Positions 57,801 through 58,838 of a stretch of 64,000 bases of DNA are shown here, in pieces. Location of the stretch: the IMG/VR virus record IMGVR_UViG_3300030419_006839, positions 1-64,000 of that record; one strand, written 5' to 3'. Each line of letters opens with the position of its first letter. The first letter of the stretch is position 1. A program made the position numbers and the translations under genes. This DNA is from a virus. Below the pieces are notes generated by a model. The model was not told the DNA's origin. It did no database searches and was given only the letters and a program-made list of their open reading frames with translations.

Positions 57801-58065
57801 CAATGAGGATATAGACTACGTTGAAGATGGAACTTCTGTAATTTCTTTAGGATTTATAAATAAGATTGAAAAGAAATTTAAATCTGGAGGATATTTGGCA
57901 GAGTTATATGATGGAACTTCATATGTTTCCCTAGTTAAGTATTCTTTAAATCAAAATGATACATACCCTAGATTGGGTCAAATAGTATTGATTGAAGGGG
58001 AAAAGAAGACATATGCTAAACACAACTCTACTCAATTAATGGTCAATAGGGTAAAGGGGTTTTAA
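54853..58065 (+). CDS. dnaE: DNA polymerase III alpha subunit (family C)
   Basis: PHP domain LHVHSHFSLLDG/TDHG, RGSAGGSL, MPDIDID, GKHAAG, KFDLLGL, YGFNKSH. Confidence 0.95.
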   Translation: MGYVPLHVHSHFSLLDGLESPKQLIQRAKDVGIDALALTDHGTMGGLIDFYFSCKEENIKPIMGSEFYFAEDRLIKEKTAHGNSNYHQTILAKNIEGWKNLITLTTEAASTGFYRNPRIDFSLLEQHNDGLIVGSGCAASIISKCIESDDFSKVKWLFNFFKKNFDGRFFAELTSIENIYENGDLAVDQKKINKYLIQYAKEFGIPFTIMSDAHYAEKEHYDEHDLLLAVQTKKKLKDKDRFRFGTKEVWLKSEDDMWDYWHREGKDHISEDDFATALENTVKIAEMTSIDLEEYYKSYRMPKLDVKDAREALFNRALNNKERTMLINRLSDSEQSKYVSRLNRELNLIVDQGFASYFMMTADLTDHMRENKIMKGLARGSAGGSLLAYMLGITDIDPITHNLSFERFMNEDKASMPDIDIDIDDEKRQEILDYFIGKYGTDNVSQIGTRITMQSKLASKDVGRTLGISFDKLNDLSDDLEVLSTVNNFKGTKEEINNIISGLNEQLISSNPSQNSKLTKKLESWKKIKNISEKHPQWLPMSSRVSGKPKAIGKHAAGIVVADDSLKKILPLQHAKNETLVTEWSDGLSRKELSDVVKVLKFDLLGLSNLGIIQNTIDLIRQRHNETKRLDLNLSDQNILNSIVLDDPYVFDNCLPNKLMGVFQFDTYAAERVLNLITPENIIELCALNAMNRPAALQANVPFMYAQRKTGKTKIEYSHPLMEEILKETYGLIIYQEQVMEIANKIGGLTPAETDKFRKVLVKVTESNKEKEDKERISLIDKFQVGALEKGMSPDDIVSLSEKLIYFSGYGFNKSHSRSYALLAYYTMYLKTYFYPEFLTAYLNKRPENLDRAIREAGFDMFLPVDVNQSNNSFILDESGRIRVGFSAIKGLGAVAVKEIVEKRPFMDLDDLKNKVEKRKVNKTRISALIKSGALTSLKVKTNLESELQVLGIPLWSIKKQLFLIKRLKNDLRLPARGSQVLNNEDIDYVEDGTSVISLGFINKIEKKFKSGGYLAELYDGTSYVSLVKYSLNQNDTYPRLGQIVLIEGEKKTYAKHNSTQLMVNRVKGF

Positions 58066-58838
58066 TGAAAAAAATTATTATTGTTTTGTTTTTATTTTCA
58101 ATTAGTTGTTTTGCAAAAGATCTTTATCATAATAAAAATCTTATTTATTTTTGGAATTTTGATAATGAAAGAAGATTTTTAATAGACGTTAAATCAAATA
58201 CAATAGCACATAAAAGAGGAACTGTAAGGTGGATTCCAAGAGAGTATTCATATAATAATTCACCTGTTATTCATATACATGGTAATATAGATCCTAATTC
58301 TAGTTTTACAATACCTGCTAGATACCTTGAGCGTGAATTAAATGAGTGGACACTTGATTTTGAGTTTGGGGCTGGAAGTCATGATTTGGATCATACAAAT
58401 AGGGATAATGGAGAATTAATGCCCTTTGGTCAGATACTCAGATGGGGTGATTTAAGAATTACTTTTTATCAAGATTCTGCTCAAGGATGGAAAGGAATCG
58501 TGAGAATAATATATCAGGGTCAGAAGAGAACTATTGAGTATTTACGAGGGTTTAAATATTATTACATGGCAGTTAGATCGGAAGAAAATGGTATTTCAAT
58601 TTGGCTAGATTCTTATTGTACTGATTATATTGAGATACCTAGAACTTCTGTAGTTGGTTTACCAATAGTTTTTGGAGGTAATGGGTTTGCTGGTAGGTTT
58701 GATGATATAAAGGTCTATAATGAAAGACTTAAACCCTGGGAAATAACAAGTAATTATTGGGGGAAAGAGTTAAATATTGAATCTAAAGACAAATTAATAT
58801 TTTTATGGTCAAAAATAAAAAAACAAGGAGATTTATAG
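58065..58838 (+). CDS. Secreted LamG/concanavalin-like protein with Poribacteria-type C-terminal motif
   Basis: Signal peptide MKKIIIVLFLFSISCFA; LIYFWNFD and FAGRFDDIKVYNERL..EI LamG signatures; ends LNIESKDKLIFLWSKIK. Confidence 0.7.
   Translation: MKKIIIVLFLFSISCFAKDLYHNKNLIYFWNFDNERRFLIDVKSNTIAHKRGTVRWIPREYSYNNSPVIHIHGNIDPNSSFTIPARYLERELNEWTLDFEFGAGSHDLDHTNRDNGELMPFGQILRWGDLRITFYQDSAQGWKGIVRIIYQGQKRTIEYLRGFKYYYMAVRSEENGISIWLDSYCTDYIEIPRTSVVGLPIVFGGNGFAGRFDDIKVYNERLKPWEITSNYWGKELNIESKDKLIFLWSKIKKQGDL

What the first reader, a model, noticed from the sequence alone, without database searches (positions are those of the whole stretch)
58065..58838. Phage-borne secreted LamG protein with a Poribacteria-type C-terminal sorting motif: host clue
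Seen: signal peptide, LamG signatures and terminal LNIESKDKLIFLWSKIK. Recalled knowledge: Candidatus Poribacteria exported proteins, often LamG-containing, commonly end in AVEPxGKLxTTWGxIK. Inference: the gene was captured from, and uses the export route of, a Poribacteria-like host, for which phages are poorly described; it may alter the infected cell surface (e.g. superinfection exclusion). It is translationally coupled to dnaE.
Basis: partly seen in the sequence, partly recalled or inferred. Interest (0 to 1): 0.75.

Follow-up and report, generated by a model that had tools for sequence, protein, structure and literature searches.

The report
Phage lectin-like protein with Poribacteria tag
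An uncultured marine phage encodes a small exported, lectin-like protein ending in a peptide tag found almost only on exported proteins of the phylum Poribacteria, so free-living Poribacteria are its likeliest host and the protein probably joins the host's tagged envelope proteins.

Summary
The ORF at 58065-58838 is real: 257 aa, with a Sec-type signal peptide, a divergent LamG/ConA-like beta-sandwich and a short C-terminal tail. Pfam does not recognise it. The fold, the profile-profile comparison and a bridging viral family place it in the LamG superfamily.

The tail is a degenerate copy of a tag that its 22 metagenomic homologues keep in near-canonical form. A scan of 185,579 species genomes and a survey of 176 Poribacteria genomes show that this tag is real. 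It is C-terminal and portable across domain types, and it is present in 175 of 176 Poribacteria genomes at about 6-108 copies each. It is at chance level in Bacteroidota. A few genomes of one other phylum carry 2-9 copies.

The phage family aligns end to end with the roughly 265-aa tagged LamG proteins of Poribacteria. The nearest cellular look-alikes in the ESM Atlas are also from Poribacteria. A low-GC, flagellin-bearing Poribacteria subclade fits the phage's other traits.

No spacer match and no close cellular homologue were found, and DnaE is uninformative. The host call is therefore a well-supported clue, not a proof. The function (surface docking, perhaps exclusion) is inferred.

This scan has already found the tag itself on several Poribacteria genomes. 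The phage-borne copies and their use as a host marker are the new part.

The parts
54853..58065 (+). DnaE-type DNA polymerase III alpha gene; its TAA stop overlaps the ATG of the LamG gene by one base
   Evidence: ORF list; PHROG 405 DNA polymerase, E 1e-261; 30-33% identity to phage DnaE genes
58054..58059 (+). Shine-Dalgarno-like A-A-G-G-G-G, 5 nt before the ATG
   Evidence: read from the sequence; function inferred
58065..58838 (+). gene for the 257-aa exported LamG-like protein with C-terminal tag (stop codon included)
58065..58115 (+). predicted Sec (type I) signal peptide, residues 1-17, cleavage after C-F-A
   Evidence: by inspection; helix 2-13 in the model; equivalent hydrophobic N-termini with an A/S-x-A/S-type end in all homologues
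58140..58718 (+). divergent LamG/ConA-like beta-sandwich, residues 26-218, with family-specific invariant His/Asp/Glu residues (H70, H72, D98, E100, H106, D109, H110)
   Evidence: AlphaFold model; Foldseek PDB and BFVD; hhalign to Poribacteria LamG proteins 98.4%; invariant columns
58773..58820 (+). degenerate Poribacteria-type C-terminal tag, residues 237-252, followed by 5 residues and the stop
   Evidence: family alignment; PSSM 12.6 bits against a null maximum of 0.8; tails aligned by hhalign
58840..59085 (+). conserved 81-aa ORF of unknown function, Trp/Arg-rich, directly downstream; it also follows the LamG gene in three related viral contigs
   Evidence: no Pfam or PHROG hit

Best explanation
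The gene encodes a non-virion phage protein that is made together with the replication genes and exported through the host Sec system.

Its body is a strongly diverged LamG (lectin-like) beta-sandwich. Its flexible C-terminal tail is a copy of the 'TTWG' tag (V-E/D-P-x-x-K-L-x-T-T-W-G-x-I/L-K plus a few residues). Poribacteria attach this tag to tens of exported, mostly lectin-like proteins per genome.

The most likely mechanism is that the unidentified host machinery or docking partner that reads this tag handles the phage protein like a host protein. It would then place the protein among the host's tagged envelope proteins. There the divergent LamG body would bind a surface ligand. The likeliest purposes are masking a receptor (against superinfection, or loss of progeny on debris) or altering adhesion.

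Because the tag is nearly confined to Poribacteria, the phage and at least ten related marine viral contigs most likely infect Poribacteria. The best-fitting lineage is a low-GC, flagellated, probably free-living one.

Shown: the ORF, the fold class, the tag homology, the taxonomic distribution of the tag, and the full-length profile homology to the Poribacteria carriers.

Inferred: export, recognition of the tag, the host, and the physiological role.
For: (1) Family. There are 23 metagenomic homologues. The tail consensus is S-V-E/D-P-K-x-K-L-x-T-T-W-(G/A/S)-x-I-K, and W248 and K252 are at least 90% conserved.

(2) The tag is real and belongs to Poribacteria.
- The strict back-translated motif gave more than 120 stretches in 185,579 species genomes.
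- 127 of 128 matches end 1-12 aa before a stop, in ORFs of about 250-300 aa.
- At least 108 of 120 loci are named Poribacteria. Three 'uncultured bacterium' MAGs among them fall in the same GTDB phylum.
- The relaxed motif occurs in 175 of 176 Poribacteria genomes, about 9,800 copies in all, with a reversed-pattern control near 0.
- In 151 Bacteroidota genomes it gave 7 hits, which is chance level.

(3) The tag is portable. Among 98 carriers, 66 have Laminin_G_3, 10 have F5/8 type C, 3 have 3-keto-disaccharide hydrolase and 1 has a PD40 propeller. In the model the tail is disordered and not part of the fold.

(4) Homology to the carriers.
- hhalign of the phage family against the Poribacteria carriers gives 98.4% probability, E 8e-15, over 227 columns from signal peptide to tail.
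- The family profile hits 12-15 ORFs of about 260-300 aa per Poribacteria genome. It hits none in a Sphingobacteriales genome and none in five tag-bearing non-Poribacteria genomes.
- In the ESM Atlas, two viral clusters come first. The next five or more listed clusters are 256-271-aa LamG proteins with 'commonest Candidatus Poribacteria'.

(5) Host fit.
- A low-GC Poribacteria subclade has loci at 0.36-0.39 GC, against 0.31 for the phage.
- Twenty-three of 176 Poribacteria genomes carry flagellin, including the low-GC genomes G006-G008. Earlier notes on this phage report sigma-28 promoters, a flagellin and FlgM (not re-tested here).
- These low-GC genomes use the same tag variants as the phage (S or A in place of G, I or V in place of L). 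One G006 tail and the tail of phage homologue P0013 agree at 12 of 16 positions.

(6) A second viral LamG family (308 aa, Laminin_G_3 above the Pfam cut-off) carries a canonical tag. It is homologous to this family at 97.3%, E 2e-11.

(7) The gene lies in the replication and recombination module (DnaE, SbcC-like, Mre11-like), not among the structural genes.
Against: - The window's own tail has lost both Thr, the Gly and the V-x-P (5 of 8 core positions kept), so it may work poorly or not at all.
- In four homologues the tag is followed by a 30-50-aa charged extension, unlike any Poribacteria carrier seen.
- No Poribacteria genome holds a close homologue. The best match is E 9e-8 over the C-terminal third only.
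- Five low-GC Poribacteria genomes searched with about 95% of the phage genome gave no CRISPR spacer match. The only hits were conserved gene motifs and AT-rich chance matches.
- DnaE is 33-37% identical to the Poribacteria, Bacteroidota and other genomes alike.
- The phage's GC is 5-8 points below even the lowest-GC Poribacteria loci.
- A few genomes of another phylum (G364, G370, G339, G328) carry 2-9 true tags, so the tag is not an absolute marker.
- The strict tag is absent from IMG/VR apart from chance, non-terminal matches.
- Nobody has shown what the tag does.
Confidence: 0.55

Rival explanations
1. The phage infects a different, non-Poribacteria host. That host either also uses the tag (like the few tag-bearing genomes found in another phylum) or is irrelevant to it. 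In that case the tail reflects shared ancestry of the LamG gene rather than current use.
For: True terminal tags occur at 2-9 copies in G364, G370, G339 and G328, which lie outside Poribacteria. There is no spacer match and no close homologue in Poribacteria. The phage GC of 0.31 is lower than any Poribacteria locus seen. The related viral contigs look like ordinary low-GC pelagic phages with common auxiliary genes.
Against: Those other genomes have GC 0.48-0.56. Their carriers are 305-330-aa proteins; the one scanned (G364) had no Pfam hit. The phage-family profile finds nothing in them. The whole-collection scan returned almost only Poribacteria. The tail is conserved across phage homologues that are only 44-54% identical, which argues for current selection.
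Confidence: 0.25
2. The protein is a virion accessory. Phages often carry lectin-like decoration or tail proteins, and the C-terminal tail would be a peptide that docks the protein onto the particle.
For: ConA/LamG-like proteins are very common in phage particles, and small ones of 205-264 aa top the BFVD fold search. Earlier notes of this scan describe shared terminal tags on LamG-like proteins scattered among the replication genes of other phages (not tested here).
Against: The protein has a cleavable-looking signal peptide, which virion proteins normally lack. It is the only ORF in the phage with this tail. The tail matches a tag used thousands of times in a bacterial phylum. The gene sits among replication genes.
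Confidence: 0.1
3. The tail has no sorting or docking role. It would be a structural appendage that co-evolved with this LamG subfamily in both bacteria and phages.
For: Two thirds of the Poribacteria carriers are LamG proteins, and no reader of the tag is known.
Against: The same tail ends discoidin, 3-keto-disaccharide-hydrolase-like and beta-propeller proteins. It is predicted to be disordered and detached from the sandwich. It always lies within about 12 residues of the C-terminus of signal-peptide proteins.
Confidence: 0.1

Closest known systems
Poribacteria C-terminal 'TTWG' tag on exported LamG-like proteins
   Same: The architecture is the same: signal peptide, a single LamG sandwich of about 200 aa, a short linker, then the tag a few residues before the stop, about 250-300 aa in all. 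The full-length profile match is 98.4%. Tag variants with S or A in place of G occur in the low-GC Poribacteria genomes.
   Different: It is encoded by a phage. The body is too diverged for Pfam and has its own invariant His/Asp/Glu set. The window's copy of the tag is degenerate, and some homologues carry a long charged extension after the tag.
Laminin_G_3 (PF13385) / ConA-like lectin superfamily, including the N-terminal jelly-roll of clostridial neurotoxin binding domains (PF07953)
   Same: Same fold and the same terminal strand motif G-x-I/F-D-D/E-V/I-x-I/V-Y.
   Different: There is no HMM hit at E<=1. The usual A-L-x-F-D-G segment is replaced by V-I-H-I-H-G. No toxin-related function is implied; only the common lectin fold is shared.
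Small C-terminal sorting signals (LPXTG/sortase, PEP-CTERM/exosortase, GlyGly-CTERM/rhombosortase) and the T9SS C-terminal domain
   Same: It is a conserved C-terminal element shared by many unrelated Sec-exported proteins of one lineage, and it is portable between domain types.
   Different: No transmembrane helix or basic cluster follows the motif. It is only about 17 residues rather than a 70-100-aa domain. No Pfam or NCBIfam model for any of these signals hits the carriers.
Phage-encoded envelope proteins that use a host sorting signal, such as the T5 Llp and phi80/N15 Cor lipoproteins that block the receptor FhuA (from my own knowledge)
   Same: The logic is the same: a small non-virion phage protein with host-type export and sorting signals is placed in the envelope during infection.
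   Different: There is no sequence or fold relation. Those proteins use a lipobox, whereas this one uses a phylum-specific C-terminal tag. The exclusion function is not shown here.

Membership tests
Laminin_G_3 / ConA-like lectin superfamily | Match to the Pfam model PF13385 at or above the gathering score | tested here: not met
   No Pfam hit at E<=1 for the window protein. The distant homologue P0028 reaches only 17.2 bits. The related second viral family reaches 31.3 bits against a cut-off of 27.6.
Laminin_G_3 / ConA-like lectin superfamily | Two-sheet jelly-roll beta-sandwich fold | tested here: met
   The model has pLDDT 75.6 with strands over residues 26-218. Foldseek gives probability 1.0 to the neurotoxin HcN lectin-like domain, sialidase lectin domains and phage ConA-like proteins.
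Laminin_G_3 / ConA-like lectin superfamily | Profile-level homology to bona fide members | tested here: met
   hhalign against 98 Poribacteria proteins (66 with PF13385) gives 98.4%, E 8e-15. phmmer hits the last strand of multi-LamG proteins.
Poribacteria 'TTWG' C-terminal tag carriers | Core K-L-x-T-T-W-G-x-I/L-K preceded by V-E/D-P-x-x | tested here: inconclusive
   The window copy keeps K, L, W, I and K but has F-L in place of T-T, S in place of G, and I-E-S in place of V-E-P. It scores 12.6 bits against a null maximum of 0.8. Twelve of 23 family members score 25-37 bits, so the family meets the feature.
Poribacteria 'TTWG' C-terminal tag carriers | Motif ends within about 12 residues of the C-terminus | tested here: met
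   Five residues follow the motif in the window protein. Poribacteria carriers have 1-12. Four phage homologues break the rule with extensions of 30-50 aa.
Poribacteria 'TTWG' C-terminal tag carriers | N-terminal signal peptide | tested here: met
   Judged by inspection of the window protein and all homologues and of the Poribacteria carriers. No predictor was available.
Poribacteria 'TTWG' C-terminal tag carriers | Encoded in a Poribacteria genome | tested here: not met
   The window lies in a 104,851-base IMG/VR virus record. All homologues found are on viral or short metagenomic contigs.
Tripartite C-terminal sorting signals (LPXTG, PEP-CTERM, GlyGly-CTERM) | Motif followed by a hydrophobic transmembrane helix and a basic cluster | tested here: not met
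   Only K-Q-G-D-L follows the motif. Poribacteria tails end 1-12 mostly polar residues after the motif.
T9SS C-terminal domain | A 70-100-aa beta-sandwich CTD recognised by TIGR04183, PF18962 or related models | tested here: not met
   No such model hits the window protein or the 98 carriers. The tail is about 17 residues and is predicted to be disordered.
Phage superinfection-exclusion envelope proteins (Llp/Cor type) | Blocks the phage's own receptor from the periplasmic or surface side | not testable with these tools
   This is a functional property, and the host is uncultured.

The most novel reading that the evidence does not exclude
This phage and its tag-bearing relatives (at least eleven viral contigs in two LamG subfamilies) would be the first recognisable viruses of free-living, flagellated Poribacteria. 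They would exploit an undescribed protein sorting or docking pathway that is nearly confined to Poribacteria, by copying its C-terminal tag onto a secreted lectin-like protein. The tag could then serve as a sequence-only host marker for uncultured phages.
Probability: 0.5. Interest if true: 0.8.

Novelty: new variant of a known kind. Interest (0 to 1): 0.66.

Why it matters
Hosts of most uncultured marine phages are unknown. In the papers I could search, Poribacteria phages were predicted only for sponge symbionts (PMC8245591). I found none described for the free-living lineages.

A phylum-restricted C-terminal tag carried by a phage gene would give a new kind of host evidence, independent of spacers, tRNAs and k-mers.

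It also gives an outside line of evidence on the tag itself. The tag ends about 10,000 predicted proteins in the 176 genomes surveyed, and no paper or family model I searched describes it. Phage copies that have diverged everywhere except in the tail argue that the tail is functional and is read by host machinery.

Tried and rejected
- Pfam, NCBIfam and PHROGs on the protein gave nothing usable.
- tblastn against 50,697 GenBank phage records gave no match.
DnaE is about 32% identical to phage DnaEs from many hosts and 33-37% identical to the Poribacteria, Bacteroidota and other genomes.
- Spacer hunt. Five 20-kb pieces of the phage were searched against five low-GC Poribacteria genomes. The hits were the conserved dnaE motif, an IscA/HesB-type Fe-S motif and AT-rich 26-27-nt chance matches. 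No direct repeats lay around any of them. Bases 20001-24000 and the last 851 bases were not searched.
- The phylum-wide DNA search scores only two candidates per genome, so it cannot count as a spacer test.
- The strict tag pattern in IMG/VR gave 5 hits, none terminal, consistent with chance.
- No tRNA was found in the window.
- Lipoprotein reading rejected: the Cys in the signal peptide is not conserved.
- Recent capture from Poribacteria rejected as unproven: the best match is E 9e-8.
- NrdJ affinity was not tested.

Full report
**What is there**

The window is the first 64 kb of a 104,851-base IMG/VR virus record, linear and about 73% complete. Its GC content is about 0.31.

The ORF at 58065-58838 (+) encodes 257 aa. 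Its ATG overlaps the TAA of a 1070-aa DnaE-type polymerase by one base, and a Shine-Dalgarno-like hexamer lies 5 nt upstream. Downstream lie:
- a conserved 81-aa ORF and a 181-aa ORF, both unknown;
- an SbcC-like ATPase/exonuclease;
- an Mre11-like metallophosphatase;
- a PQ-loop protein.

The gene therefore sits in the replication and recombination module, not among the giant fibre genes upstream.

**Anatomy of the protein**

The N-terminus looks like a type I signal peptide: M-K-K, a hydrophobic core, then C-F-A | K-D. The Cys is not conserved, so it is not a lipobox.

Pfam, NCBIfam and PHROGs give nothing. The AlphaFold model built on 23 sequences (pLDDT 75.6, pTM 0.75) is a beta-sandwich over residues 26-218 with a disordered tail over 231-257. 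Foldseek places the sandwich with ConA/LamG-type jelly rolls. These include the lectin-like N-terminal half of clostridial neurotoxin binding domains, sialidase lectin domains and many phage 'ConA-like/LamG' proteins. Only the common lectin fold is shared; no toxin function is implied.

An exhaustive phmmer search of 1.84 billion representatives finds only 32 proteins. The distant ones are multi-LamG proteins that match the last strand.

**The family and its tail**

There are 23 metagenomic homologues at 43-79% identity, with no Pfam domain and no names. They align along their whole length.

Their tails have the consensus S-V-E/D-P-K-x-K-L-x-T-T-W-(G/A/S)-x-I-K, followed by 0-5 residues. In four members a 30-50-aa charged extension follows instead.

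The window's own tail is a degenerate copy. The K-L, the W and the I-K are kept at the right spacing. The T-T, the G and the V-x-P are lost.

**Is the recalled Poribacteria motif real?**

Yes.

- A back-translated K-L-x-T-T-W-G-x-I-K pattern was scanned over one genome from each of 185,579 species.
- 127 of 128 matches lie 1-12 residues before a stop codon, in ORFs of about 250-300 aa. The unselected positions upstream are also conserved (V 96 of 98, E/D 71 of 98, P 68 of 98).
- At least 108 of 120 loci are named Poribacteria. Three of the 'uncultured bacterium' MAGs fall in the same GTDB phylum.
- A relaxed pattern finds the tag in 175 of 176 Poribacteria genomes, at about 6-108 copies each and about 9,800 in all. 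The reversed-pattern control is near 0.
- The same pattern gave 7 hits in 151 Bacteroidota genomes, which is chance level.
- In 121 genomes of the phylum of a sponge MAG that NCBI names Pseudomonadota, most have none. However, G364 (9), G370 (3), G339 (2) and G328 (4) carry true terminal tags on 305-330-aa signal-peptide proteins.

The tag is therefore nearly, but not absolutely, confined to Poribacteria.

Of 98 carriers, 66 have Laminin_G_3, 10 have F5/8 type C, 3 have a 3-keto-disaccharide-hydrolase-like domain and 1 has a PD40 propeller. The tail is thus portable between domain types. No NCBIfam model describes it, and two full-text searches found no paper on it. Earlier agents of this scan reached the same description on several Poribacteria genomes. 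The tag itself is therefore not a new find of this report.

**Does the phage protein belong with them?**

- A position matrix was built from 37 Poribacteria tails that were not selected by the strict pattern. It scores 12 of the 23 family members at 25-37 bits and the window copy at 12.6 bits. The best of 218 unrelated viral ORFs scores 0.8 bits, and 0 of 20,000 shuffles of the tail reach 12.6.
- Profile-profile comparison of the phage family with the 98 carriers gives 98.4% probability and E 8e-15. It covers 227 columns, from the signal peptide through the sandwich to the tails, which align on each other.
- The family profile hits 12-15 ORFs of about 260-300 aa in each of four Poribacteria genomes, always through to the tag. 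It hits nothing in a Sphingobacteriales genome or in the five tag-bearing non-Poribacteria genomes.
- In the ESM Atlas, two virus-only clusters come first. The next five or more listed clusters are 256-271-aa LamG proteins with 'commonest Candidatus Poribacteria'.
- A second viral family (308 aa, Laminin_G_3 above the Pfam cut-off) carries a canonical tag. It is homologous to this family at 97.3%, E 2e-11.

**Host**

Evidence for Poribacteria:
- The tag distribution described above.
- A low-GC subclade exists, with loci at 0.36-0.39 GC in G001-G003, G006 and G007.
- Flagellin genes occur in 23 of 176 Poribacteria genomes, including G006-G008. This fits earlier notes that the phage uses sigma-28 promoters and carries a flagellin and FlgM (not re-tested here).
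- These genomes use the same tag variants as the phage. One G006 tail agrees with the tail of homologue P0013 at 12 of 16 positions.
- The best profile hits in the phylum are G006, G063 and G007, which are all flagellin-bearing, together with G171 and G159, which are not.

Evidence against, or missing:
- There is no close homologue. The best match is E 9e-8 over the C-terminal third.
- No spacer match was found with about 95% of the phage genome against five low-GC genomes.
- DnaE is uninformative.
- A GC gap of 5-8 points remains.
- The eight other viral contigs that carry the gene (GC 0.30-0.36) do not have it next to dnaE.

I put the host call at roughly 55%.

**Mechanism**

Shown: a signal-peptide-like N-terminus, a lectin-type fold, a flexible tail homologous to a portable host tag, and a position among replication genes.

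Inferred:
- The protein is exported by Sec.
- An unknown host reader or docking partner recognises the tail.
- The protein is placed among the host's tagged lectin-like envelope proteins.
- It binds a surface ligand there.

Receptor masking, in the manner of the T5 Llp and Cor proteins, is the most economical purpose. That part rests on my own knowledge of those systems, and I give it about 25%.

The family-specific invariant His/Asp/Glu cluster suggests a metal site or an activity that ordinary LamG lectins lack.

**Limits**

- No signal-peptide predictor or model coordinates were available.

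Noticed in passing
G364:C1 (L145, L146), G370:C1 (L147), G339:C1 (L148), G328: True terminal TTWG-type tags occur at 2-9 copies per genome on 305-330-aa signal-peptide proteins in a few genomes outside Poribacteria (GC 0.48-0.56; the one G364 carrier scanned had no Pfam hit). They are in the same GTDB phylum as a sponge MAG that NCBI calls Pseudomonadota. This could be a second lineage with the tag system, or horizontal transfer.
   Followed up: partly
L173:12770-13693 (+) and L176 (end of contig): A second virus-only LamG family (308 aa, Laminin_G_3 above the Pfam cut-off) ends in a canonical tag, K-V-E-P-K-L-K-L-T-T-T-W-G-E-V-K. 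The contigs have GC 0.33-0.36. The family is homologous to the window's family (hhalign 97.3%).
   Followed up: partly
window 58840-59085; L132/L133 10693-10941; L135 3829-4077: A conserved 81-82-aa Trp/Arg-rich ORF (K-Y-G-W-x-V-R-R-K-N-W-W) directly follows the LamG gene in four phage contexts, sometimes overlapping its 3' end. It has no family hit and may be a functional partner.
   Followed up: partly
window 58065-58838, residues 70-110: The phage LamG family has invariant H70, H72, D98, E100, H106, D109 and H110. V-I-H-I-H-G replaces the usual A-L-x-F-D-G. This may be a metal-binding or catalytic site that typical LamG lectins lack. Spatial clustering could not be checked without model coordinates.
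   Followed up: no
P0016-P0020, P0028 and L173:12770-13693, N-termini: Distant family members share a nearly identical N-terminal segment (a basic stretch of about 18 aa, then W-L-M-F-T-L-M-F-V-E-S-S-F-G) on otherwise diverged bodies. This is far more conserved than a signal peptide needs to be.
   Followed up: no
window 63470-63736 and 63819-63998 (runs off the window): An 88-aa PQ-loop (SemiSWEET-like) ORF has Pfam E 7.8e-7. The following ORF begins like the 307-aa membrane protein that follows the LamG gene in L134. I suspect a PHO4/PiT-type phosphate transporter, but this is unverified.
   Followed up: partly
A2 (98 Poribacteria tagged proteins): 43 of the 98 proteins hit NCBIfam NF052521 'TafC family fimbrial protein' (best E 1.6e-16). 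I did not check which part of the proteins matches. If it is more than the LamG body, it could hint at a fimbria-like assembly for tagged proteins.
   Followed up: no
L165:1818-1849 (genome 65818-65849): The phage carries an IscA/HesB-type Fe-S assembly gene. Its G-G-G-C-S-G-F-Q-Y motif matches G001 DNA at 30 of 32 nt. This is a conserved-gene match, not a spacer.
   Followed up: yes
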